Sequence record: NC_041869.1 | Direction: 5' to 3' (one strand) | DNA from: Escherichia phage APECc02 | Length of the DNA stretch: 64,000 nt | Shown here: piece after piece, positions 7,501 to 64,000 of the stretch | How positions within the stretch are numbered: position 1 is the stretch's first letter | Layout: each line of letters opens with the position of its first letter | Notes under the pieces: model-generated | The model's input: the letters and a program-made list of their open reading frames with translations, nothing else | What the model was told of the DNA's origin: nothing | Databases searched by the model: none | Translations under genes and position numbers: made by a program

Positions 7501-7784
7501 GAGTTGCTACACTGTTTATTGCGTGCTTGTTATTATGTGGGTGTGCAACCAGCGTTGAGAGAGAATACAAGATTGACCCTCCGGATGTAGGAAGGTTGAT
7601 TGTTAAACCCCCGGAAGGTGCCATGAAACCACCTGCTAAAGCTATGCCTTTGAAGAAAGGTGCTCCAGATGCAGTAAATTCTGGCATTATGAGGGATAAT
7701 AATTTGTCTTGTAGCAATGATAGAGCTAAATTGATCATTTTGCAAGACTATATTAGAACACTGTTTCCAAAGGAGAGAGGTTAA
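7497..7784 (+). CDS. o-spanin-like outer-membrane lipoprotein
   Basis: Signal/lipobox LLLCGC then Pro-rich mature region; start overlaps upstream stop (ATGA). Confidence 0.55.
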   Translation: MRVATLFIACLLLCGCATSVEREYKIDPPDVGRLIVKPPEGAMKPPAKAMPLKKGAPDAVNSGIMRDNNLSCSNDRAKLIILQDYIRTLFPKERG

Positions 7785-8218
7785 TGTCTAAGATTTCTAA
7801 GATTTACGGACCGTGTTCTGAAAAGCAGAAGATGATCCTCGAAAACGATGCAGATATTTTGGTAATCGGCGGTGCCGCAGGGTCTGGCAAGTCGTTCCTC
7901 TTGCAGTTGATGCCGCTTAAAATTATTGATGACCCACACAGCTCTGTGGTTATGTTCCGAAGAACAACCCCGCAGTTGGAAGGTGAGGGTGGACTATGGC
8001 CTAAAGCAGTAGCTATTTATAGTGATCTGCCTGAAAACATTAAGCCAAAGTTTAGAGAGAAGGATCATAAGTTCATTTTTCCACGGTTTGATCCGAGCAC
8101 TGGCAAGTGGGATAGAAGCAAAAAGGGAGCTGTTGTAAAATACTGCCACATGGAGTATGTACAAGATAAGCTTAACCATCAGGGGCTTGAGTACACCATG
8201 GTTTGCTTCGATGAGGGT
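7784..8218 (+). CDS. terminase large subunit, exon 1 (ATPase domain)
   Basis: Walker A GGAAGSGKS, Walker B-like MVCFDE; ORF stops at 8219-8221 immediately after DEG, inside intron. Confidence 0.75.
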
Positions 8219-9101
8219 TAATTTGTAGCTCTCGTAAAACCTCCCTAATTGCGGGGAAATCTTTATTATTGACACCACCAACCTGTTATGGTAACATAAT
8301 AGAGGCTTCGAAGAGAGATCGAAGGTATGGTAACAGTGTGTTAATTTAGATAATCCGCAGCGAAGCATCCGAGAGGATGAACGTTCAACGACTAGTCGAA
8401 AGACGTAGAATCAAGCGATTCGAAACGGGAGGGTGAATGTGTAATACTAAAAAATGTATGGATTGCCAAAGAGTTCTGCCTATTGATGATTTCTTTTTAT
8501 CATCTAAGAGCAAGGATGGATACTCAGGTACATGCAAGGAATGCTATATGTACTACAGGAAGGGTGGATCTCGTAAAAACAAAAATATGGTTAAGAGAGA
8601 TGACGCAGCATTGTTTATTCAAGACTTGCTGAAGAAAGGTGAACTTTTTGAATGCAAATCTTGTCATGAAAGTATGCTCGCTGATAGTTTTTACACAAAA
8701 CGTGACTATGGTAAAGTATATCTGGTTACGAACAGGTGTAAGATGTGTGAAAAGTTTTATCAGATTGAGAAGAAATTTCACATAACAAAAGATGAATACT
8801 ATCGTCTACTCTCAGATCAAGATCATAAGTGTGCCATTTGTAGAATATCTCTTAATGAGTATAGGACGCAAGGGTACAGAGATTTCTTTTGTGTTGATCA
8901 TGACCATAAAACTGGTGCTGTAAGAGGGTTGCTTTGTGATAAATGCAACAGAGCTTTAGGTTTCTTCCAAGAAGATGAGGAAACTATTCTTAGAGCGGCA
9001 GAGTATTTACACATTCATAAGATATAGTCTGGTCTGCATGGAGACATGCAGCTGCCTGAAAATGGCGGGGCAAGACTAGCGACCTTGCCCGAACATAAAC
9101 G
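8219..9101 (+). mobile_element. group I intron with embedded HNH homing endonuclease gene
   Basis: Conserved core elements P (aattgcggggaaatc 8247-8260), Q (aatccgcagc 8352-8361), R (gttcaacgactagtc 8383-8397), S-like (9072-9084); exon 1 ends in T 8218, intron ends in G 9101; flanking exons are in frame. Confidence 0.75.
8437..9027 (+). CDS. HNH (endonuclease VII-like) homing endonuclease, intron-encoded
   Basis: GGGAGGG RBS; Cys-rich N-terminus; motif FCVDHDHKTGAVRGLLCDKCNRALG. Confidence 0.8.
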   Translation: MCNTKKCMDCQRVLPIDDFFLSSKSKDGYSGTCKECYMYYRKGGSRKNKNMVKRDDAALFIQDLLKKGELFECKSCHESMLADSFYTKRDYGKVYLVTNRCKMCEKFYQIEKKFHITKDEYYRLLSDQDHKCAICRISLNEYRTQGYRDFFCVDHDHKTGAVRGLLCDKCNRALGFFQEDEETILRAAEYLHIHKI

Positions 9102-10223
9102 ACACAGTTCGAATGGGAGCAGATAGACTATCTGATGTCTCGTCTGCGATCTCAGTCAAAGTATCCATCAAGAATGGTTATCAGCTGTAACCCTGATTCA
9201 GAACACATGCTTGCCAAACTGGTTAGGTGGTGGTTGGACGATGAAGGGTATCCAGATCCGGAGAAATGTGGTAAGAAAAGGTATTTTATCAGGCGTGACG
9301 GTGAATTTATCTGGGGAGACTCTAAAGAGGAGTTGATAGAGAAATACACCACGGTTAACGGACTGGGTGTGGAGATCAAGCCAAGACCGTTGTCATTCTC
9401 GTTTATAGGCGCAACAATATTCGATAATCCTGTCTGCTTGAGAGACAACCCAGAATACCTTGCTTTCCTTGAAGGTCTGCCTGAGCTTGAAAAAGCCCAG
9501 CTTCTTCATGGTAACTGGTTTGCAAAGCCTGAGGGTGCAAACTATTTTCAAAGATCTTTCCTTCGTGATGCCGATAGAGTACCTCTTGGATCAGTGTCTT
9601 GCAGGGCATGGGATAAAGCAGGAACCGAGAGAACTTCCGGTAATAAATTTCCTGACTTTACCGCCAGTGTCAAGGTAAGTAAAGATAGCGACGGCTTTTA
9701 TTACCTGTCCGGGGATTATTGTCCTGAGAACGTGGATGACGGGAGGTATTCCACAGGTCTGGAAGGCAAGTTCTGTAAAAAGGCTGGTGAACGAGATGTG
9801 ATCATCAGGAAACAGGCGCAGTTTGATGGTGATGATTGTATAATCGTATTCTCTGTGGACCCCGGTCAGGCAGGTAAGAGTGAGTTCTTAACCTCCTCCA
9901 GATCCTTGCTTGCCGAAGGGTTTAGGGTTGAAGAAGACCCAATGCCTTCCAACAAATCTAAACTGACAAGGTTCTCACCTTTTGCCAATCTTGCCCAACA
10001 AGGAATGGTGAGGATTGTAAAATCCAGTTTCCATCCTGATACTCTGGAAGCATTTCTGACTGAACTTGAAAAATTCAACGGGGAAAGATCAACATTTAAC
10101 AGAAAAGACGACTGGGCCGACTGTGTAGCTTCTGCGATTAATTTCCTGGAGAAAGAGGAGGTAGCACTTCCTTGTGTGATTCCATCAATCTCATCACCTT
10201 CTATGTTCAAGCGTTTTATCTAA
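9102..10223 (+). CDS. terminase large subunit, exon 2 (nuclease domain)
   Basis: Same frame as exon 1 when 8219-9101 is removed, giving ...FDEG-TQFEWEQIDYLMSRL...; long ORF directly upstream of portal gene. Confidence 0.7.
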   Translation, partial: TQFEWEQIDYLMSRLRSQSKYPSRMVISCNPDSEHMLAKLVRWWLDDEGYPDPEKCGKKRYFIRRDGEFIWGDSKEELIEKYTTVNGLGVEIKPRPLSFSFIGATIFDNPVCLRDNPEYLAFLEGLPELEKAQLLHGNWFAKPEGANYFQRSFLRDADRVPLGSVSCRAWDKAGTERTSGNKFPDFTASVKVSKDSDGFYYLSGDYCPENVDDGRYSTGLEGKFCKKAGERDVIIRKQAQFDGDDCIIVFSVDPGQAGKSEFLTSSRSLLAEGFRVEEDPMPSNKSKLTRFSPFANLAQQGMVRIVKSSFHPDTLEAFLTELEKFNGERSTFNRKDDWADCVASAINFLEKEEVALPCVIPSISSPSMFKRFI

Positions 10224-56229: not shown

Positions 56230-56463
56230 TTAATCTTCGTAAATCAAGATTTCTGCTTTAGGTTTTCGTGCTTTCAGGTCCAGCTCTATCCAGTGCACCA
56301 TAGCTGTTTCAAGAAAAACAGCTTGGATGCATCCGTCCTCAGCGTGCCCTACCAACATAACAAGATCTTCACCTTCGTCATCTGCATCACGAACATAAAG
56401 AATCTCTCCAGATTCAAAGTCTTTCACAACCTGATTGTTGGATAATTTACGAATTTTTGCCAT
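56230..56463 (-). CDS. small paralog family member D (77 aa)
   Basis: Shares G-E-(I/V)-h...D...V core with upstream paralogs. Confidence 0.5.
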   Translation of the reverse strand: MAKIRKLSNNQVVKDFESGEILYVRDADDEGEDLVMLVGHAEDGCIQAVFLETAMVHWIELDLKARKPKAEILIYED

Positions 56464-56464
56464 A

Positions 56465-56728
56465 TCAGAAACCCTCTAAAAAGCTCTTGTAGAAAACAAT
56501 CTCAGTATCCACACCAGTCACGATCTTGTCGTTCCTGATTTCATCGGTAAGATAGGTGTCAAAACGCAGAACCTGTGTGGTGTTGTCACACATCCACTCT
56601 GCTGTGACCATGGCGAAAATCTTAGCATCTTCATTATCTGGTGTGAATGTTACCACCTCACCGCATTTAAACTTTTCGATAGGTTGAGTGTTAGCTTTCG
56701 GTTCTGCGATAGTGATTTTTGTGGTCAT
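56465..56728 (-). CDS. small paralog family member C (87 aa)
   Basis: KCGEVVTFTPDNEDAKIFAMV aligns with PCGTVVSCDGDGIQNIVMIV of member B. Confidence 0.55.
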   Translation of the reverse strand: MTTKITIAEPKANTQPIEKFKCGEVVTFTPDNEDAKIFAMVTAEWMCDNTTQVLRFDTYLTDEIRNDKIVTGVDTEIVFYKSFLEGF

Positions 56729-56991
56729 TATTCTCCTCCTTCTTTTGAATAGCTTGTCTCTCCAAGGATGGTAATTTTGGTGTCAAGCTCTGTAACTTTC
56801 ATGTTTGGTGGCAGATCGTACAACTCATTATTTTCTAAATCAAACCCCCACACACAATGTTCTCCTGTTTTGACAATCATAACTATGTTTTGAATGCCGT
56901 CTCCGTCACAACTTACCACGGTCCCACACGGGAAGCTGTCTGCACGCTTTTTGTTCTTCACCTTAGAATTGAATACAATGCTAGTAGCCAT
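56728..56991 (-). CDS. small paralog family member B (87 aa)
   Basis: About 40 percent identical to member A by eye (MAT..F.S..K.KK, GTVV, VK, FDL, LP..VTE.D..I.ILGE). Confidence 0.55.
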   Translation of the reverse strand: MATSIVFNSKVKNKKRADSFPCGTVVSCDGDGIQNIVMIVKTGEHCVWGFDLENNELYDLPPNMKVTELDTKITILGETSYSKEGGE

Positions 56992-57254
56992 TATTGTTCC
57001 TCCACCATAACTTCGCCAAGAATTTCTATGCAGGCATCCATTTCTGTAACAACCAAACTGTGAGGTAGTTCTACAAACACCTTTCTGAACAAGTCAAATA
57101 CCCCAACATATATGTTTGCAGGATGTGATTTTACAACAAGTGCTGTATTCACATCCCCAAGCTCATCAACAAACATCACCACAGTGCCTGGAGCTACGGA
57201 AGACAGATACTTCTTAGTTTTACGGTTTGATGCAAATTTTAACTCTGTTGCCAT
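56991..57254 (-). CDS. small paralog family member A (87 aa)
   Basis: Identical length to B and C; TAATG stop/start overlaps. Confidence 0.55.
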   Translation of the reverse strand: MATELKFASNRKTKKYLSSVAPGTVVMFVDELGDVNTALVVKSHPANIYVGVFDLFRKVFVELPHSLVVTEMDACIEILGEVMVEEQ

Positions 57255-57269
57255 AAATAATCTCCTCCT

Positions 57270-58751
57270 TTATTTAGCGTACTCGATTAATTCCACAGTT
57301 TTCCCAAAGCTCGGGATATAATTTTTATTATACCCCTCGGTGAGAACCCATAAAGTATCGTACTTTTTCCACTTGTTGTCAACAGCCTTTTGTTCAAAGT
57401 TATGCTCAAAGTATAGGTCGGTCAGGACGATGACATCTTTTGCATTCGGTATATTGGCATCCAGATACTCGAACACGCAAGCAGCTGTTGTGCCCCATGT
57501 TGAGTGGACCTCATAGTTGATCATCTCGTCTATGTTGCCGCGAGTGTATACTTTGACCTCTCCAACCTCGGTTGACCAACAGAACATTGTAACCTTAAAC
57601 TCTTTATACAGATTGCACAATCCGGTGATTTCATTGAACATTTTCTTTAAAGTTCTTTGAGAGATCGAGCCAGAAACGTCTAAAGCCACCACAATATCTA
57701 TAGTGTTTTCAGGATTACGACCGGGAACAATAACGTGCTGGTTCTTGTTTATAGCCCCAACTTTTCGCATTGTGCTGGTCAAAGAACCAGATCGGCGACC
57801 AGGTTTTCTGTAGGTCAGTTCAGCCTTTCGTTTAGACAACATGCGTTGCTTAATAATGTCTATATAGTTGATTACAGGCTTACCCCTGTTCTTGACAAAC
57901 TCACGCACCGCCTCAGGGCAACGGCCTCCGGAAGCTTGCATTGCTGCCTCCAGCATGTCACCAGAGTCCTGCATGGCCTGATCTTTATCAGATTGGCTGA
58001 TTACAGGTTGTGGCTGATCATACCCCATAGCCTTTCCAAGATCATCGCTGGTGCCACCGTTCCCACTCATGTGATCATCGGTTTGTCGCTTATCTCCTTG
58101 AGAGTTCTCACCTTTACCGCTCTTACTTTTACCGTTATTCTGATCTCTTTGCTTATCAAGAACTGCATAGACGTTCTCAGCAATCCATCCATGAAACTTC
58201 ATGTCACAGTAGCAGCTGGCTAAGAAGCCAAAAGGCTTACCTTTTACGAACGTAGTGCTTTTCCCTTTCGGGAAGAAAACACAAGGTGGCTTGCTAAAGT
58301 CAACCACAAGACCTGTGTTGATAACGTGATCACAAGCAATATTGAACAGTTCCGGCTCAAAGCTTTTACCACGGACCAGGTGATCACAGATAATATGACC
58401 CACCTCATGTGACAGAAGAAAGGCTACCTCTTTCACAGATTTGGGGGAATAGAAAACTTCAGCCATCTCAAACTGCTCGTCAGTTAGAGAAGCCTTAAGA
58501 ATAGCCTTGCGTTCATCAGCCAACCCCATAATGAACTCAGGACTGTAATAGATGCGTTTATGGTCGGTTGCCATGGTGGAGCACCATGTGTGGTTTTCTA
58601 CGAACTGCAACCCTGACAGCAGTGTGCCATAAAACGGCAGCTTTTCAAGGAGATACATACGTGCAGCCTGCAACATTCTCAGGGCATCATCTTTTTGTGA
58701 GGCAATGATTTCTGAACTTCTGCTATCCATTAAAACTCCAGAAGGGGCCAT
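57270..58751 (-). CDS. metallopeptidase-vWA fusion protein (HExxH N-domain, von Willebrand A C-domain)
   Basis: HEVGH zinc-binding motif; MIDAS-like VVALDVSGSIS. Confidence 0.65.
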   Translation of the reverse strand: MAPSGVLMDSRSSEIIASQKDDALRMLQAARMYLLEKLPFYGTLLSGLQFVENHTWCSTMATDHKRIYYSPEFIMGLADERKAILKASLTDEQFEMAEVFYSPKSVKEVAFLLSHEVGHIICDHLVRGKSFEPELFNIACDHVINTGLVVDFSKPPCVFFPKGKSTTFVKGKPFGFLASCYCDMKFHGWIAENVYAVLDKQRDQNNGKSKSGKGENSQGDKRQTDDHMSGNGGTSDDLGKAMGYDQPQPVISQSDKDQAMQDSGDMLEAAMQASGGRCPEAVREFVKNRGKPVINYIDIIKQRMLSKRKAELTYRKPGRRSGSLTSTMRKVGAINKNQHVIVPGRNPENTIDIVVALDVSGSISQRTLKKMFNEITGLCNLYKEFKVTMFCWSTEVGEVKVYTRGNIDEMINYEVHSTWGTTAACVFEYLDANIPNAKDVIVLTDLYFEHNFEQKAVDNKWKKYDTLWVLTEGYNKNYIPSFGKTVELIEYAK

Positions 58752-58763
58752 TGGCCCCTGTCA

Positions 58764-59804
58764 TTATTTAACGTGTTTGAAAATACCTGCCAACTCGGTC
58801 ATTGTCATGCGGGTGGTCTTCATAAGATCTGTCATAGCTTTCTCCATAATTGGAGATACTACCATAAAGTTTCCTTTAGTGAAACCTTTATTCCAGTCGG
58901 TCACCAGTAGTGGTTTAAGTCCAGCTCCGAGACGTTCACCAGTTAAAGCACAGCATTTGCGAATATACGAACTCTTAAACTGGCTGAACGACAGATCAAC
59001 TTTCATACCTGCATCGTAGAACGTTTGACAATAGAAAGTGTAAGCCTTAGCAACCTCAACATCATCAGGCAGTGCAGGAACCTCTTCTGCAATCTCCTCT
59101 TCGACCTTCTGAGGCTCTTTTTCCTTTTCAGAGTTCTGTTCTTCAATTTCTTCTGTCACAGTTTCGTTTACGATGTCTGAAATGTGTTTGTTGGCTGCAC
59201 GATCAGCCATGAAATTTTTAAAGTCCTGCATTGGTGACATATCTTCTTCCTCTTCGTCAAAAAGTGCTAGTTTATCTTCTTCTGTCCCGTATTGCAAGAT
59301 GAAATCTTCAAAAGTATAATCACCTTTCAACTTCTCCATACGCTCTTCGCTCAGGTGGAGCATCATCTGCTGGACAATTTTTCGATCAGTTTTGTCTTTA
59401 ATCAGGATTGCAGTCTTTTTATCTACCAGACAGTCCTTCAGAGAGTTGCACCTCAATCCTACCACACAACAATTATCAATTGCGTAAGGACCTTCATCAT
59501 CTATCCGCTCCAGAGATGGATAGAAAGGATTTCCCAGCCCGTTTTCATCTGTGTGCATGTCGAAAGGTATAAGAGTGTAGTCGCATACCCCTTCTCCTAA
59601 AAGTTTTTTACCAAATAGGAGGTATTCTTCCCACGACAGGTCGAACTCTATATCTCGTTTCCGTGCATTATTCTGTTTGCGTCTATATTTTTTGAGCAGG
59701 CGCTCTAACTCTTCTGGTGTATAATATTTTTCAAGATTCATGAGTTGTTTCTCGTGCTCTGTAAGTGAAGAAATCGTATCAACTGTCCCAACAGATGTCA
59801 ACAT
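58764..59804 (-). CDS. hypothetical protein with acidic linker
   Basis: ATG at 59804 (track uses TTG at 59807); first gene of leftward operon. Confidence 0.45.
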   Translation of the reverse strand: MLTSVGTVDTISSLTEHEKQLMNLEKYYTPEELERLLKKYRRKQNNARKRDIEFDLSWEEYLLFGKKLLGEGVCDYTLIPFDMHTDENGLGNPFYPSLERIDDEGPYAIDNCCVVGLRCNSLKDCLVDKKTAILIKDKTDRKIVQQMMLHLSEERMEKLKGDYTFEDFILQYGTEEDKLALFDEEEEDMSPMQDFKNFMADRAANKHISDIVNETVTEEIEEQNSEKEKEPQKVEEEIAEEVPALPDDVEVAKAYTFYCQTFYDAGMKVDLSFSQFKSSYIRKCCALTGERLGAGLKPLLVTDWNKGFTKGNFMVVSPIMEKAMTDLMKTTRMTMTELAGIFKHVK

Positions 59805-59814
59805 CAAAAACGTG

Positions 59815-59843
59815 TTGACTTTACGCTAAATCTCCGATATAGT
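59815..59843 (+). promoter_or_regulatory. sigma70-like promoter TTGACT-17-TATAGT
   Basis: In divergent intergenic region 59805-59883. Confidence 0.5.
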
Positions 59844-59883
59844 GCACCCATTCGAAAGAAAACTAACATAGGAGCACTTACTC

Positions 59884-60783
59884 ATGGCAAATCTTAACAG
59901 TTTTAGCACCAGGTGGCAACAGGATATAACAACCAATCTCTCAGCTGGAGATATCCTTTCTGCAATTTACGAAGCTCTGGATGATAAAGCTACTTCAAAA
60001 GCGGTTTGTACCAACCCACTAATTCCTATAGTGATGAAGGTGATTGAGCGTAGATTGGTATCTGGGTCTGATAAGTGGACATATTTAGATAATGAAGGAC
60101 ACACCTATTCCAACGGGTATGTCGATATAAAAGTAGAATACGCGGTATCATACCGCCGGAGCGGTTCTGTAACTTTCAACTTCTCTGGAGGTTTTCGATC
60201 TCTGGCTACTTCACCTTTTGTTTCCTCAGAGGAGAAGTATGAGCTGCCATTTCTTTGGATGATGGCTAACGCGACAGGAAAAACCCCCGTTAGCATCCGA
60301 GTAAAATACAACTACAACGGATCTAGTAAGATCTATGCCGAAAGTGCCTCAGCAAGTTTTTATTTTGTGATGGGAGATGGAATCCTCAAACATATAAAGA
60401 TGTGTGATATGCATGATGTTATAAATGAAGTGACTGATAAGAATGTTCTGGTGAAGGATCTCAACAATTTTTATACACCGGGAGACTATTACGTCAACCG
60501 TCCACTGTGCATCTTTAATGCTGCACACCCTTTAGGTGAGTATTTGATTGCCAATAGTGATATTGCCAATAACCGCTTCGAGGTAGCAAGAGTACAGAAT
60601 GAGGTATTGACATCTTGCAAGAGCGGTGATAAGTTCACCGAAGAAGAGATGGGCGTTTTAGAAATGATGGGATATAAGTGTAGCCTTTGGGTAGATGAGG
60701 TGTTTAATGACGGCATCTATGGACAGGATATTTACCCGTTAAAGAAGTATACTGATTCCAGTTTAATTTGCGCGGAGATTTGA
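59884..60783 (+). CDS. hypothetical protein
   Basis: 299 aa. Confidence 0.5.
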   Translation: MANLNSFSTRWQQDITTNLSAGDILSAIYEALDDKATSKAVCTNPLIPIVMKVIERRLVSGSDKWTYLDNEGHTYSNGYVDIKVEYAVSYRRSGSVTFNFSGGFRSLATSPFVSSEEKYELPFLWMMANATGKTPVSIRVKYNYNGSSKIYAESASASFYFVMGDGILKHIKMCDMHDVINEVTDKNVLVKDLNNFYTPGDYYVNRPLCIFNAAHPLGEYLIANSDIANNRFEVARVQNEVLTSCKSGDKFTEEEMGVLEMMGYKCSLWVDEVFNDGIYGQDIYPLKKYTDSSLICAEI

Positions 60784-60785
60784 CT

Positions 60786-61058
60786 ATGATGAAGGCATGT
60801 GGTAGTGTATACTATGTGGGTGAGAATGTTCAGGCAGATAGCGTGTGGAAATCTATTAAGTCTACCACCGACGATGCCTTCTTGAGCGGACTATGTTTCC
60901 CCAACCCGGGAGACATCCTCCCTCACCCTGGAGATTTTGTTGTTAACAAGATGGACGGTTATACCGTGTGCCTGATGGTTGAAAAAATCTTTTTAGACAC
61001 TAGACACAATCACCGTCTTGTGTTAAAATTTCAAGAATGTAAAATGACAATTGCCTAA
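60786..61058 (+). CDS. hypothetical protein
   Basis: ATG 60786; 90 aa. Confidence 0.4.
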   Translation: MMKACGSVYYVGENVQADSVWKSIKSTTDDAFLSGLCFPNPGDILPHPGDFVVNKMDGYTVCLMVEKIFLDTRHNHRLVLKFQECKMTIA

Positions 61059-61071
61059 GGAGGCCTTACCT

Positions 61072-61428
61072 ATGTCTAAAGTTACTTATCGTGCAGCTAT
61101 TTACTGCAATGAACACCCAATCAATAATGATGGTCACTGTCTTTTTAAAGAAAATCAGTTGGGCTGTATTGTCCTCCCTGATGAAGGGAAAGGTTATCTG
61201 ATTGCATTGACAGGGTTTGAGCCTGAAGCTTTGGAAGCCAACCTGGACTACCTGGTAGAAGAGGGTGCTGCAGACCTGGTTGCCAATGGCCTCTCCATAA
61301 ACCTCGACGAAGTGGAGCGCTTCATGGGCAATTACCGTGTAGTGCGTGAGTTTACTATCGAGGTGGAAACTCCAGAGTGGGGTAGCACTGAAACTAACGC
61401 CGAAGAAAAAGAAGAGGAGGTAGAATAA
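61072..61428 (+). CDS. hypothetical protein
   Basis: ATG 61072 with AAGGAGG RBS. Confidence 0.5.
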   Translation: MSKVTYRAAIYCNEHPINNDGHCLFKENQLGCIVLPDEGKGYLIALTGFEPEALEANLDYLVEEGAADLVANGLSINLDEVERFMGNYRVVREFTIEVETPEWGSTETNAEEKEEEVE

Positions 61429-61685
61429 TGAAAGTGCAGATTTTGACTAATGCCGAGAAGATGTTTATTGAAGATACGCCTTTTGAAGCTGGTGAGCTAC
61501 AGTTCGTTTATTTTGTTGACTTAGATAAGGTGTTCCCTGCACTGAATCTGGGTCTGGATGAAGTTCCTCATAAGGTTTTGTGCCAAGTTGTTCGTGCTTT
61601 AGCGGCAGATGGGGAGTTCCACACTCTTGAAGATATCCAGACCTACGGGTATCTTGAACTACAACGAGAAGAAGAGGTGGATTGA
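61428..61685 (+). CDS. hypothetical protein
   Basis: 85 aa. Confidence 0.4.
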   Translation: MKVQILTNAEKMFIEDTPFEAGELQFVYFVDLDKVFPALNLGLDEVPHKVLCQVVRALAADGEFHTLEDIQTYGYLELQREEEVD

Positions 61686-61687
61686 TA

Positions 61688-62068
61688 ATGGCCCGATGGA
61701 AGACAACAGTTGACCTTCATGATCAGTGGTTAGGACGCATCGCTGAAGACGGGAAACTAGTAGAGTGGGACAATAAGCATGTTAGCGAGTTGGCAAGCAT
61801 TGTGGCTGGCAAGTTACGCTCCAAGTTCCCTGAACAACTGGATCCTGATAATTCAAAGTTCGATCCTGAGTTGGAGGATGTTGTATACTACTTCGATACC
61901 GTGGATGACTACGATGCGTGGCTTGCAGCACGGGAGCTTTACCCACAAGGCTCCGCTATGCGCCAGATGGAAGAAGATTATCCTCCGTGTGAGCAATTCA
62001 ATAGCGCAATGACTTGCCTCTATGATTGGGCAGATAAGAACCTTGTCTGGATTCGAACTGCATTCTAG
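61688..62068 (+). CDS. hypothetical protein
   Basis: ATG 61688. Confidence 0.4.
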   Translation: MARWKTTVDLHDQWLGRIAEDGKLVEWDNKHVSELASIVAGKLRSKFPEQLDPDNSKFDPELEDVVYYFDTVDDYDAWLAARELYPQGSAMRQMEEDYPPCEQFNSAMTCLYDWADKNLVWIRTAF

Positions 62069-62083
62069 TAGGTGGTGGCAGGG

Positions 62084-62377
62084 ATGCCGCTTAGAAGAGT
62101 AATAAACATGTTATACCAGAAACACGAACTTTGTGCAGAAAAAGAGTTAAATTTTGACAAAGTTATCCACAGATATTGTTACGGGAAACCCGGAAGATAC
62201 CTAAAAAGGTGCACTCCAGCATTCTTTCACCCCAGCAGGCGACTAAGCCCTGAAGAAGCAACAGCAGAAAGGGTTGCATACAACTGGGAAGTTGTGTACG
62301 ATATTGACAGATCCGATGTGACATCTGTTTTGGAAAACTTCGAAAACACTTACACACAAGTAGAGGACTTTTACTAA
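62084..62377 (+). CDS. hypothetical protein
   Basis: ATG 62084. Confidence 0.4.
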   Translation: MPLRRVINMLYQKHELCAEKELNFDKVIHRYCYGKPGRYLKRCTPAFFHPSRRLSPEEATAERVAYNWEVVYDIDRSDVTSVLENFENTYTQVEDFY

Positions 62378-63561
62378 TGTCAAGAAACGTATTTGAAAGT
62401 GGTCAAATCACTGTCCGTGAGTTGCCAGCTATCATTCAGTTTGCCCAGCGTCATAACCGATCTGTCCTGATTTTAGGACCAATGGGCGTGGGAAAGAGCC
62501 AGGTGATGAAGCAGATCGCCGATAATATGTTCGGTGAGCGAGATGACAACCTGGTTGACGTGCGGCTGTCAGATAAAGATCCTGCCGACTTATCTGGGCT
62601 ACCTATCCCTGTAGAAGCTGATGGAACTACACGTACAGTGTTTGCAATTCCAGAATTTTGGCCTGCAGATCCGAACTGGAGTGGAATTATCTTTCTGGAT
62701 GAGCTTACTCATGCAGATAACTATCTGCAAAAGGTTGCAATGCAGATTATGCTCGACCACAAGTGCGGCACCTATGCATTCCCTAAAGGCTCTGTTTTTG
62801 TGGCTGCGGGTAACCGTTCTACAGATGGTGCTGTTCTTTCGGCGCTCGAAGCTCCTCTGGCTAACCGCTTTATCATTGTAGAGGTTACAAGCAATGCAGA
62901 GGTGTTTATTGAGGACTACGCATTCCTCAATGGGGTGCACTCCTCTGTAATTGGGTATCTGAAAAGAGTTCCATCAGCTATCGATAATTATGAGGCTATG
63001 GCTGAGATTAATTGTCCATCTTTTGCCACACCGCGATCTTGGGTTGCTGCATCTGACATCTTGCACGATTTTGACAGCGGTATTATTTCTGACGCTATGG
63101 CCCGTGTTCTTCTGCAAGGTGCTATTGGTCACACTGCAGCGGTAGAGATCTGGACCTACCACACCAAGAAACGCAACTTACCGGAAATCGGTCGGATTAT
63201 GGCAGGGGGTTGCAAAGAATACATAGGTCCTAAACAGCCAGACATCTTGTGGATTCTTGGGTCTGAAGGTTGTATCGCTATTCGTAATATGATGGAAAAT
63301 GCAAGTATCTCCGACGAAGATCTTGTTAGCTGTGTGGCAAACTTCCTCGATTTCCTTTGGGAAAATTTCAAGGACGAGAACCGAGATTTTGTATTCTCAG
63401 TCTTTATGGCGATGATGAAACCTAATGCCTTAGGAAATGCCTTGCTTATCGGTAAAGGGCGTGACAAGATTGTTGCTCAGCTGATTAAAGCATACCCAAA
63501 CCTGATGAAGATTGTAAAAGAGTTTGGTGAAGAGTTTAGCGCCATTTTGGCTAAAGCTTGA
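62377..63561 (+). CDS. AAA+ ATPase (MoxR/CobS-like)
   Basis: Walker A LILGPMGVGKS, Walker B IIFLDELTHA. Confidence 0.7.
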   Translation: MSRNVFESGQITVRELPAIIQFAQRHNRSVLILGPMGVGKSQVMKQIADNMFGERDDNLVDVRLSDKDPADLSGLPIPVEADGTTRTVFAIPEFWPADPNWSGIIFLDELTHADNYLQKVAMQIMLDHKCGTYAFPKGSVFVAAGNRSTDGAVLSALEAPLANRFIIVEVTSNAEVFIEDYAFLNGVHSSVIGYLKRVPSAIDNYEAMAEINCPSFATPRSWVAASDILHDFDSGIISDAMARVLLQGAIGHTAAVEIWTYHTKKRNLPEIGRIMAGGCKEYIGPKQPDILWILGSEGCIAIRNMMENASISDEDLVSCVANFLDFLWENFKDENRDFVFSVFMAMMKPNALGNALLIGKGRDKIVAQLIKAYPNLMKIVKEFGEEFSAILAKA

Positions 63562-63570
63562 GGAGGTTGT

Positions 63571-63951
63571 ATGGCTAAAGTAGGTAAGCGGGGAAACTAC
63601 CTGGTAGTATTGACCGAAGAGCCGGAGAAGGAGTACGAATGCAGCTCCACTTGCGTGATCGATATCCGAGAAAAAGATGTAGATGAAATCTGGTTTGAAA
63701 TATTGGACGCTTGCGATAGCAGTGATTATTTCTTCATCTATGTCAACGATAAGGCTGGGTTCTTCCATGACGACGGAGAGTTGCCGTATGAAATCTATGA
63801 ACTTGTAGAGGCTTGCCATCGTGGAGATGCGGAGTTGTTTGGCTTACGGCTGAAAAGCGGTAAATTCTTCTATCAAGATGAGTGCATGAATCTTCATAAC
63901 TTTGTAGAGGGAACTTGCAACGATGGAGAGATTTTGGCACACTACGATTAA
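63571..63951 (+). CDS. hypothetical protein
   Basis: 126 aa, GGAGG RBS. Confidence 0.45.
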   Translation: MAKVGKRGNYLVVLTEEPEKEYECSSTCVIDIREKDVDEIWFEILDACDSSDYFFIYVNDKAGFFHDDGELPYEIYELVEACHRGDAELFGLRLKSGKFFYQDECMNLHNFVEGTCNDGEILAHYD

Positions 63952-63963
63952 TTTCTAAGACCT

Positions 63964-63986
63964 CCCCCGCTTCGGCGGGGATTTTC
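63964..63986 (+). terminator. rho-independent terminator
   Basis: CCCCGC-TTCG-GCGGGG then ATTTTCT. Confidence 0.6.
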
Positions 63987-64000
63987 TATTTGGAGTTATT

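What the first reader, a model, noticed from the sequence alone, without database searches (positions are those of the whole stretch)
57270..63561. Metallopeptidase-vWA protein and separate AAA+ ATPase in divergent early operons
Seen in sequence: the 493-aa minus-strand protein has an N-terminal HEVGH zinc-peptidase motif and a C-terminal MIDAS-like vWA motif (DVSGS); a MoxR/CobS-like AAA+ ATPase (GPMGVGKS, DELTHA) lies at 62377..63561 on the other strand. Established knowledge: MoxR-type ATPases usually work with vWA partners. Inference: a split ATPase/vWA-peptidase pair of unknown target; its position next to the tandem paralog array may be functionally meaningful.
Basis: partly seen in the sequence, partly recalled or inferred. 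Interest (0 to 1): 0.55.

Follow-up and report, generated by a model that had tools for sequence, protein, structure and literature searches.

The report
Split phage MoxR ATPase–vWA-peptidase pair
Two genes of an rV5-like coliphage, a MoxR-type AAA+ ATPase and a zinc-peptidase/vWA fusion protein, belong to a widespread two-gene module that sits side by side in most other phages and bacteria; here a rearrangement has separated them, and what the module does is still unknown.

Summary
The window is an rV5-like Vequintavirus. ORF 57270-58751(-) is a Pfam DUF2201_N + DUF2201 protein: a zincin with an HExxH motif, a disordered linker and a vWA domain with a complete MIDAS. ORF 62377-63561(+) is a divergent AAA+ ATPase. 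Its model is closest to the MoxR ATPases NorQ and CbbQ, and the vWA half is closest to NorD-VWA bound to NorQ.

The pairing inference is strongly supported. Of 79 related loci carrying both genes, 77 have the DUF2201 gene immediately downstream of the ATPase gene on the same strand. The same order holds in a bacterial chromosome, N4-like phages (gp24/gp25, both core genes), Bacillus phage AR9 and Certrevirus, a sister genus. Only the Vequintavirus lineage has the genes 3.5-3.8 kb apart on opposite strands. Each gene is single-copy, and both are under very strong purifying selection (dN/dS 0.014 and 0.018).

Expression data from AR9 and N4 point to early/middle expression, not late, which argues against the published virion-assembly proposal.

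The suggested link to the neighbouring "tandem paralog array" is not supported.

This kind of pair was already described computationally (Iyer et al. 2021), and both genes are already annotated in GenBank. It is a new, rearranged member of a known kind. Target and function remain untested.

The parts
57270..58751 (-). DUF2201-family protein (rV5 ORF12): N-terminal zincin-like metallopeptidase domain (aa ~1-205 plus helices 253-306), disordered G/D/S/Q-rich linker (aa ~206-250), C-terminal vWA domain (aa ~350-493). The likely true start is the ATG at 58730 (486 aa).
58380..58409 (-). Zinc-binding/catalytic motif HEVGHIICDH (aa 115-124)
   Evidence: H115, E116, H119 and H124 are invariant in 41 family members; positions. 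Family members give weak hits to Peptidase_M48, SprT-like, DUF5700 and M78 and to minigluzincin MJ1213 and BepA.
57666..57680 (-). MIDAS motif DVSGS (aa 358-362). The remaining MIDAS residues are T421 and D445.
   Evidence: D358, S360, S362, T421 and D445 are invariant; positions.
62377..63561 (+). MoxR-type AAA+ ATPase (rV5 ORF4): AAA+ core (aa ~10-265) with a beta-hairpin insert at aa 75-90, plus a C-terminal helical extension (aa ~270-394).
   Evidence: Model with pLDDT 82.9. Top PDB fold hits are NorQ (9qh7_E, E=1.8e-8) and CbbQ2 (6l1q). 33% identity, E=3e-37, to the AAA_5 ATPase next to a bacterial DUF2201 gene. The protein itself scores below Pfam cut-offs, while about half of its aligned relatives match bpMoxR, AAA_5 or AAA_3 at E<=0.01.
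62476..62499 (+). Walker A motif GPMGVGKS (aa 34-41)
   Evidence: G37, G39, K40 and S41 are invariant; position.
62698..62715 (+). Walker B motif DELTHA (aa 108-113)
   Evidence: D108 and E109 are invariant; position.
59773..59883 (.). Divergent control region (the intergenic gap itself is 59808-59883). It holds sigma70-like sites on both strands: + strand TTGACT-17-TATAGT at 59815-59843, and - strand TTGACA-17-TACGAT with TG at 59801-59773, which is the promoter annotated as 'P11' in rV5.
   Evidence: Consensus scan, sequence, rV5 record annotation and the rV5 paper. These are predictions only. The region as a whole holds no more promoter-like sites than shuffled sequence (17 against 14.6).
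58764..59807 (-). Srd-like 'anti-sigma factor' gene (rV5 ORF11), the first gene of the operon that also carries the DUF2201 gene. It is context, not part of the pair.
   Evidence: PHROG hits to Srd and sigma70-decoy families. It lies next to the DUF2201 gene in L016 too but is absent in Certrevirus.

Best explanation
The two genes encode the two halves of one conserved machine. One half is a MoxR-class AAA+ ATPase, presumably a hexamer. The other is its dedicated vWA partner, which carries an N-terminal zincin metallopeptidase joined by a flexible linker. The ancestral arrangement is a two-gene operon, ATPase then DUF2201. In the Vequintavirus lineage and a sister lineage, a rearrangement moved the DUF2201 gene to the other side of a divergent promoter region. 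The partners are therefore now 3.5 kb apart on opposite strands, each still single-copy and tightly conserved. By analogy with the solved NorQ-NorD complex, the vWA domain would dock on the ATPase ring, its MIDAS metal would capture an acidic residue of a target protein, and ATP hydrolysis would remodel the linker or the target so that the zincin domain can act on it. That action is most likely cleavage. The module is made in the early/middle, non-structural phase of infection. Its target is therefore more likely a host protein or an early phage protein than a virion precursor. Shown: homology, domain content, intact catalytic, MIDAS and ATPase residues, conserved adjacency elsewhere, co-retention and purifying selection here. 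Inferred: physical interaction, peptidase activity, timing in this phage, and the target.
For: Adjacency. Of 90 loci fetched by ATPase similarity, 79 contain a DUF2201 gene. In 77 of these it lies immediately downstream on the same strand (gap -58 to 548 nt). The other 11 loci end 0-1067 nt after the ATPase gene. DUF2201-seeded look-ups all found an ATPase homolog upstream on the same strand: gammaproteobacterial chromosomes, N4-like contigs and another phage contig, Bacillus phage AR9 g028/g029 and Certrevirus PBES 02 of the same subfamily.

The split is lineage-specific. It is seen only in the window, L001, L015 and L016. In the 10-kb neighbourhoods compared between the window and Certrevirus or L017, only these two proteins are conserved.

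Each gene occurs at one place per genome, in about the same number of close relatives: 117 and 116 records at 95% identity or more. dN/dS is 0.014 and 0.018, against 0.07-0.15 for neighbouring genes.

Structure. The ATPase model best matches NorQ and CbbQ. The vWA half best matches NorD-VWA bound to NorQ. The domain order of N-terminal domain, disordered linker and vWA parallels NorD.

All catalytic, MIDAS and ATPase residues are invariant.

Timing. AR9 g028 has a mapped primary transcription start with the early-promoter motif. g028 and g029 are already at 88 and 77 FPKM at 5 min, whereas virion genes are near 0 at that time. N4 gp24 and gp25 are both among the 14 N4-like core genes and are reported as middle transcripts. 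In the large environmental phage group the pair sits beside genes whose sequences I read as a FEN-type exonuclease and a QueE-like enzyme; these identifications were not checked with a family search. In rV5 the genes lie outside the late unit, genes 27-66, and neither protein is among those the paper's text names from virion mass spectrometry.
Against: There is no direct evidence of interaction, ATPase activity or proteolysis for any member of this family. The N-terminal domain has no significant solved structural relative, and its similarity to known peptidase families is weak. The window's ATPase itself scores below Pfam cut-offs. Timing evidence comes from distant homologs (21-29% identity). 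For this phage there are only promoter predictions, and promoter-like sites in the region are no more frequent than in shuffled sequence. Most of the 80 viral loci belong to one syntenic phage group, so the 77/79 count is not 77 independent events. Independence rests on about six separate lineages. The rV5 virion proteomics was shallow.
Confidence: 0.7

Rival explanations
1. Virion-assembly chaperone plus processing protease. The MoxR-vWA pair would fold or assemble structural proteins and the fused peptidase would trim them, as proposed for group 2.2 jumbo phages by Iyer et al. 2021 by analogy with the Acidianus two-tailed virus MoxR-vWA system.
For: A published proposal for the same architecture. 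MoxR/vWA systems are generally maturation chaperones. In some N4-like roseophages a 'second structural module' lies near the gp24/gp25 homologs.
Against: AR9 g028 and g029 are transcribed from an early promoter and are abundant at 5 min, when virion genes are near zero. N4 gp24/gp25 are middle genes. In the window and in rV5 the genes lie outside the late structural unit, next to rIIA/rIIB and helicase genes. Neither protein is named among the virion proteins in the rV5 text or the RPP1/RLP1 passages read.
Confidence: 0.13
2. Metal-cofactor insertion or enzyme-activation chaperone, as with NorQD, CbbQO, CoxDE and CobST. In this reading the HExxH domain is a metal-binding or target-recognition module and not a protease, and it activates a phage or host metalloenzyme such as one for nucleotide metabolism.
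For: The best structural relatives, NorQ/NorD and CbbQ, are of exactly this type. 20 of 41 family members give weak VWA_CoxE hits. In N4-like phages the pair sits next to dCMP deaminase/dUTPase and ThyX genes.
Against: The invariant Glu of HExxH (E116) is the hallmark of a hydrolytic zincin and not of a mere metal site. No client enzyme is conserved next to the pair across lineages. The ferrochelatase neighbour in one bacterium is not conserved in a related bacterium. No CobS, CobT or CobN signatures were found.
Confidence: 0.1
3. A phage-borne conflict system (superinfection exclusion or abortive-infection-like), related to the MoxR-vWA ternary conflict systems of bacteria, with the peptidase as effector.
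For: Half of the ATPase relatives give weak hits to the bpMoxR family of MoxR-vWA-beta-propeller systems. Peptidase effectors fused to vWA occur in such systems.
Against: There are no PADLOC hits. No third component (VMAP or beta-propeller) is conserved nearby. Both genes are core genes of all N4-like phages and are under very strong purifying selection in a strictly lytic phage. This fits a basic propagation function better than an accessory defence.
Confidence: 0.05
4. The two proteins are functionally unrelated in this phage, and their co-occurrence is a leftover of ancestry.
For: They lie on opposite strands, 3.5 kb apart and in different operons. No interaction data exist.
Against: The split arrangement has persisted down to about 43-53% protein identity (L016) with both genes retained. 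Each gene is single-copy in about the same set of genomes. Both have dN/dS below 0.02. No alternative vWA or MoxR partner was found (one place per record).
Confidence: 0.02

Closest known systems
MoxR AAA+ / (metallopeptidase-vWA) pair of group 2.2 jumbo phages (Iyer et al. 2021, Viruses 13:63, PMC7824862)
   Same: The same two-protein architecture: a MoxR-type ATPase plus a vWA protein with an N-terminal zincin domain. RaK2/121Q/GAP32-type jumbo phages are hit by both window proteins.
   Different: There the genes are adjacent (for example MT939488.1: 122182-123462 and 123556-124710). Here they are split onto opposite strands. That paper proposes a virion-assembly role, which the timing data gathered here do not favour. 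Identity is only about 25-29%.
Phage N4 gp24 (AAA ATPase) / gp25 (vWFA protein), core genes of N4-like phages (Schitoviridae)
   Same: Homologous to both window proteins: ATPase 26-29% identity with E=2e-17 to 3e-21, and DUF2201 domains in the partner. Function is unknown. They are not late genes.
   Different: They are adjacent, on the same strand, directly after the RNAPII genes and before nucleotide-metabolism genes. They are shorter, lacking the inserts of the rV5-type protein.
[quoted passage not shown]
   Same: The same pair (HMM E=2.8e-26 and 1.9e-49). This is the only member with transcription data: an early promoter and co-varying expression.
   Different: Adjacent genes in a very distant phage (jumbo, uracil-DNA, Gram-positive host).
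NorQ-NorD (also CbbQ-CbbO, RavA-ViaA, CoxD-CoxE): bacterial MoxR AAA+ / vWA chaperone pairs
   Same: These are the best solved structural matches of both halves. They share the partner layout of N-terminal domain, disordered linker and vWA with MIDAS. They supply the general mechanism: a vWA finger in the ATPase pore, with the MIDAS binding the target.
   Different: The N-terminal domain here is a zincin with HExxH and not a NorD/CbbO-type domain. The ATPase has an extra C-terminal helical extension of about 120 aa. No metalloenzyme client is evident. Sequence identity is only 9-22%.
Bacterial DUF2201 + AAA_5 operons (for example Sulfurivermis fontis AP018724)
   Same: The closest cellular relatives: ATPase 33% identity with E=3e-37, and the same domain content.
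   Different: They are chromosomal, adjacent and follow a thioredoxin gene. They are shorter (348 and 415 aa). Their function is equally unknown.

Membership tests
Pfam DUF2201 architecture (PF13203 DUF2201_N + PF09967 DUF2201) | Both domains score above Pfam gathering thresholds, in N-to-C order | tested here: met
   99.4 bits (cut-off 23.2) and 43.7 bits (cut-off 26.4). All 41 aligned relatives match both.
vWA domain with functional MIDAS | DxSxS...T...D metal-coordinating residues | tested here: met
   D358, S360, S362, T421 and D445 are invariant in 41 sequences.
vWA domain with functional MIDAS | vWA (Rossmann-like alpha/beta) fold | tested here: met
Zincin metallopeptidases | HExxH on a helix plus a third zinc ligand | tested here: met
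   HEVGHIICDH: H115, E116, H119 and H124 are invariant. The motif lies in predicted helix 106-121. Calling H124 the third ligand is an inference.
Zincin metallopeptidases | Zincin fold similar to a characterised peptidase family | tested here: inconclusive
Zincin metallopeptidases | Zinc-dependent peptide-bond hydrolysis | not testable with these tools
   A biochemical assay is required.
MoxR-class AAA+ ATPases | Walker A, Walker B, sensor 1, arginine finger and sensor 2 intact | tested here: met
   G37/G39/K40/S41, D108/E109, N146, R147/R164 and R220 are invariant. Assigning individual residues to sensor or finger roles is an inference.
MoxR-class AAA+ ATPases | Closest structural relatives are MoxR members; beta-hairpin insert after helix 2 | tested here: met
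   Top 14 Foldseek PDB hits are NorQ and CbbQ2 (E of 1.8e-8 to 7e-7, TM of target about 0.6). A predicted hairpin lies at aa 75-90, between beta2 and the Walker B strand.
MoxR-class AAA+ ATPases | Match to a MoxR-type Pfam model (AAA_3, AAA_5, bpMoxR) above threshold | tested here: not met
   The window protein scores 16.8 bits for AAA_5 (cut-off 22) and does not hit AAA_3. 15-18 of 36 aligned relatives match AAA_3, AAA_5 or bpMoxR at E<=0.01. It is a divergent member reachable only through intermediates.
MoxR-class AAA+ ATPases | Genomic association with a vWA-domain partner | tested here: met
   Adjacent in 77 of 79 related loci and in at least six separate lineages. In this window the partner is 3.5 kb away on the other strand.
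CobS/CobT aerobic cobaltochelatase subunits | CobS- or CobT-specific domains and a CobN partner | tested here: not met
   No CobS or CobT family appears among the Pfam hits of either protein or of their relatives. One relative gave a single weak Mg_chelatase hit. CobN was not searched genome-wide.
MoxR-vWA ternary conflict systems (Kaur et al. 2020) | A third component (VMAP or beta-propeller) encoded with the pair | tested here: not met
   No conserved third gene is shared across lineages. There are no PADLOC hits.

The most novel reading that the evidence does not exclude
The pair is a new class of phage host-takeover or counter-defence machine. It would be an ATP-driven, MIDAS-guided protease, made early by very different lytic phages (Vequintavirinae, Schitoviridae, RaK2-like and AR9-like jumbo phages, abundant environmental phages), that captures a specific host protein through an acidic residue and cleaves or dismantles it. 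That would explain why both genes are core genes of N4-like phages and among the most constrained genes of the rV5 early region.
Probability: 0.3. Interest if true: 0.7.

Novelty: new member of a known kind. Interest (0 to 1): 0.35.

Why it matters
The DUF2201 family is large: 15,136 clusters at 50% identity match with E<=1e-30. With its ATPase it forms a two-gene module that is core in N4-like phages and present in many unrelated lytic phages and some bacteria. No member has a known target or a tested activity. Showing that the rV5-type genes are a rearranged copy of this module gives a tractable E. coli model, the rV5/BASEL Vequintavirus phages alongside N4, for finding out what the module does. 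The early/middle timing evidence redirects the search from virion assembly toward host takeover or replication-phase functions. It also flags a widespread misannotation, 'HNH endonuclease', that hides the family in phage genomes.

Tried and rejected
- The search for related loci with the DUF2201 alignment failed because no conserved 7-10-column stretch was available. The ATPase alignment was used instead.
- A sequence search of the PDB with the peptidase protein found nothing. The family profile gave only vWA hits and marginal M48/minigluzincin hits.
- Both fold searches with the full-length model were dominated by the vWA half, so the zincin domain could not be placed.
- NCBIfam and PADLOC gave no meaningful hits.
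- Literature searches for COG3864 and for rV5 with MoxR returned nothing. DUF2201 appears in four papers, none functional.
- A conserved third gene or client was looked for and not found. The neighbours shared by 50-59 loci belong to one syntenic environmental phage group. Nothing but the pair is shared between the window and Certrevirus or L017.
- The idea that rV5 ORF3 (63571-63951) corresponds to the gene downstream of DUF2201 in Certrevirus, which would have mapped the rearrangement breakpoint, was rejected: no similarity.
- A ferrochelatase link seen in one bacterium was rejected because it is not conserved in a related bacterium.
- The predicted 'P4' promoter just upstream of the ATPase in the rV5 record is weak in the window sequence and was not relied on.
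- The link to the tandem paralog array was rejected.

Full report
**What the window is.** The 7-kb region is 99.5% identical to Escherichia phage rV5 isolates and 95-96% identical to many other Vequintavirus genomes. In the orientation of the window, a minus-strand gene block ends at 59807 and a plus-strand block starts at 59884. This is the junction between rV5 genes 11 and 10. The rV5 genome paper reports bidirectional promoters there and places both blocks outside the late unit, genes 27-66. The ATPase is rV5 ORF4, annotated 'MoxR ATPase'. The peptidase-vWA protein is rV5 ORF12, a 'conserved hypothetical' with a DUF2201_N hit.

**Checking the observation.** They are not chance motifs.
- The 493-aa protein scores well above Pfam's gathering thresholds for DUF2201_N ('putative metallopeptidase domain') and DUF2201 ('VWA-like domain').
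- In an alignment of 41 relatives down to about 20% identity, the invariant columns are the zinc motif (H115, E116, H119, H124, plus D141) and the complete MIDAS set (D358, S360, S362, T421, D445).
- The 394-aa protein falls below every Pfam AAA cut-off on its own. In an alignment of 36 relatives the Walker A and B residues, N146, R147, R164 and R220 are invariant. About half of those relatives match AAA_3, AAA_5 or bpMoxR at E<=0.01.
- One refinement: the peptidase probably starts at the second ATG (58730, giving 486 aa). It has a GGAG 5 nt upstream, the first ATG is buried in a hairpin, and relatives are annotated at 486 aa.

**Structures.**
- The AlphaFold model of the ATPase (pLDDT 82.9) finds NorQ and CbbQ2, both MoxR AAA+ ATPases, as its best 14 solved matches. 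It has a beta-hairpin insert at aa 75-90 and an extra C-terminal helical region of about 120 residues.
- The model of the DUF2201 protein (pLDDT 84.1) shows an N-terminal helical domain carrying HExxH, a disordered G/D/S/Q-rich linker (aa 210-235, pLDDT below 50) and a C-terminal vWA domain.
- The two window proteins therefore most resemble the two partners of one solved MoxR/vWA complex. The layout of N-terminal domain, disordered linker and vWA also parallels NorD.
- The zincin domain found no solved structural relative. It has only weak profile similarity to M48/minigluzincin, SprT-like and M78 families.

**Are the two genes a pair?** This is the main result.
- Look-ups seeded with DUF2201 relatives found an ATPase gene directly upstream in a Sulfurivermis chromosome and in N4-like phage contigs. 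Those ATPases are homologous to the window's ATPase: 33% identity with E=3e-37, and 26-29% identity.
- Ninety loci were then fetched by ATPase similarity (10 from genomes or MAGs, 80 from viral contigs) and scanned with HMMs of both families.
  - 79 contain a DUF2201 gene. In 77 of these it lies immediately downstream on the same strand (gap -58 to 548 nt).
  - The 11 loci without one end 0-1067 nt after the ATPase gene.
  - The two exceptions, L015 and L016, are rV5-like and show the split arrangement, as does isim (L001): opposite strands, 3.6-3.8 kb apart, against 3.5 kb in the window.
- Most of the viral loci belong to one syntenic environmental phage group, so they are not independent events.
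- Adjacency also holds in separate lineages:
  - gammaproteobacterial chromosomes;
  - N4-like phages;
  - another phage contig, with three small genes in between;
  - RaK2-like jumbo phages (coordinates);
  - Bacillus phage AR9 g028/g029;
  - Certrevirus PBES 02, a member of the same subfamily Vequintavirinae, and L017.
- The adjacent operon is therefore ancestral and the split is a lineage-specific rearrangement.
- The split has persisted down to 43-53% protein identity (L016) with both genes kept.
- Each gene occurs once per genome, in nearly the same number of close relatives.
- Between the window and phage isim, dN/dS is 0.014 for DUF2201 and 0.018 for the ATPase, against 0.15 and 0.07 for the genes between them.
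- In 10-kb neighbourhoods compared with Certrevirus and L017, these two are the only conserved proteins.

**Timing.** There are no expression data for rV5-like phages. Sigma70-like sites exist on both strands of the divergent region, and one coincides with the promoter annotated as P11 in rV5. These are predictions, and such sites are no more frequent here than in shuffled sequence. Distant homologs give experimental hints.
- AR9 g028 has a mapped primary transcription start with the early-promoter motif. g028 and g029 run in parallel: 88 and 77 FPKM at 5 min, 464 and 595 at 20 min, 378 and 465 at 40 min. Virion genes are near zero at 5 min.
- N4 gp24 and gp25 are both among the 14 core genes of N4-like phages and are reported as middle transcripts.
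- In the environmental phage group the pair sits beside genes whose translated sequences I read as a FEN-type exonuclease and a QueE-like enzyme; I did not check these with a family search.
- In N4-likes it sits between the RNAPII genes and the dCMP-deaminase/ThyX genes.
- In the window it is near the rIIA/rIIB and helicase genes.
- Neither protein is among those the rV5 paper's text names from virion mass spectrometry, although that survey was shallow.

[quoted passage not shown] The MIDAS metal binds an acidic residue of a target. ATP-driven movement acts through the flexible linker. The zincin domain, with its invariant catalytic Glu, then cleaves the target. Given the timing evidence, the target is more likely a host protein or an early phage protein than a virion precursor. 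Everything from 'engages' onward is inference. I put 0.7 on the combined statement: about 0.85 that the two are functional partners, and lower that the output is proteolysis in the early/middle phase.

**Rival explanations.**
- Virion-assembly chaperone/protease, proposed by Iyer et al. 2021 for the same architecture in jumbo phages: 0.13.
- Metal-insertion or enzyme-activation chaperone, like NorQD or CbbQO: 0.10.
- A phage-borne conflict system: 0.05.
- Unrelated functions: 0.02.

**Comparison with what is known.** The pair type is not new.
- Iyer et al. (2021) described a MoxR AAA+ plus metallopeptidase-vWA pair in group 2.2 jumbo phages.
- N4 gp24/gp25 have been listed as conserved genes of unknown function since 2009-2014.
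- GenBank records of rV5-like phages already carry 'MoxR ATPase' and 'metallopeptidase' labels.
- In the searched library no paper links the two genes in rV5-like phages.
- What is added here: the rV5 genes are a split copy of the module; the split is specific to part of the Vequintavirinae; both halves stay tightly constrained; and timing data from homologs argue against a late role.
- 'CobS-like' is not supported, and neither is the proposed link to the neighbouring paralog array. Only ORFs 56991-57254 and 56728-56991 are detectably paralogous (38% identity, phmmer about 1e-7). L015 has a single copy. No homolog lies near the DUF2201 gene outside Vequintavirus.

**Verdict.** The feature is a rearranged member of an already described but functionally uncharacterised phage module. 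The family is large, with 15,136 clusters at 50% identity matching at E<=1e-30, so finding its function would matter. This window adds a useful E. coli-phage model and a timing argument, not a new kind of system. Interest 0.35.

Noticed in passing
window 57270-58751 and 58764-59807; many phage records: PHROG families phrog_1314 (the DUF2201 zincin-vWA protein) and phrog_3118 (the Srd-like protein) are labelled 'HNH endonuclease'. This label has spread into many GenBank phage records for DUF2201 proteins, for example PBES 02, RaK2 and GAP32. The protein has HExxH and MIDAS motifs and no HNH motif. One homolog is even named 'DNA repair ATPase'.
   Followed up: partly
window 57000-64000: Sixteen records named 'Campylobacter phage' (15 of them with host C. 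jejuni) match this coliphage region in the near-identity DNA search. The two sampled carry these proteins at 99.7-99.8% identity. They look like mislabelled or contaminant rV5-like genomes.
   Followed up: no
L101 (DQ832317.1) 7756-9217, equivalent to window 57270-58751: The rV5 reference record splits the DUF2201 gene into ORF12 (441 aa) and an overlapping ORF13 (81 aa). The window and phage FFH2 have one intact 493-aa ORF. This is probably a frameshift or sequencing error in the reference that removes the C-terminal part of the vWA domain from the annotation.
   Followed up: partly
window 56230-57254: The 'tandem paralog array' amounts to one duplication. 56991-57254 and 56728-56991 are 38% identical (phmmer about 1e-7). 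The next two small ORFs (56465-56728, 56230-56463) are not detectably related to them. The close relative L015 has only one copy of the duplicated gene.
   Followed up: yes
window 59741-59807: A good sigma70-like promoter (TTGACA-17-TACGAT with an upstream TG, 59801-59773, minus strand; the rV5 'P11') lies inside the 5' end of the 347-aa Srd-like ORF. The real start is therefore probably further downstream. Candidates are the ATG at 59741, just before the point (residue 25) where the PHROG profile match begins, or the rV5 ORF11 start, which gives 311 aa.
   Followed up: partly
window 62072-62377: The stop codon of the 101-aa ORF just upstream of the ATPase overlaps the ATPase start codon (TAATG), which suggests translational coupling. 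The ORF is labelled 'ATPase' or 'MoxR ATPase' in PHROGs (phrog_13164) and in some records, yet it has no P-loop. It is not conserved in L016 or Certrevirus.
   Followed up: partly
window 58743-58759: A perfect 7-bp GC-rich hairpin (AGGGGCCATTGGCCCCT) sits between the Srd-like gene and the DUF2201 gene and includes the first ATG of the long ORF. It was flagged as terminator-like on the plus strand. On the coding (minus) strand it could modulate translation or transcription read-through into the peptidase gene.
   Followed up: no
KX889068.2 (Vibrio phage pVa5) 52782-53876 and 60610-61317: In this N4-like vibriophage the DUF2201 and ATPase genes appear to lie about 6.7 kb apart on the same strand, a possible second, independent separation of the pair.
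   Followed up: no
L002 4314-4685; L097 and L098 4324-4692: In the gammaproteobacterial chromosomes a thioredoxin gene immediately precedes the ATPase-DUF2201 pair, while the downstream genes differ. NorQ was reported to be redox-regulated through a P-loop disulphide, so a redox link might be worth a look.
   Followed up: no
window 59884-60783: The 299-aa ORF annotated 'putative alpha 1-3 fucosyltransferase' in rV5-like records has no Pfam, NCBIfam or PADLOC hit and only a function-unknown PHROG. The annotation rests on an old weak similarity and looks unreliable.
   Followed up: no
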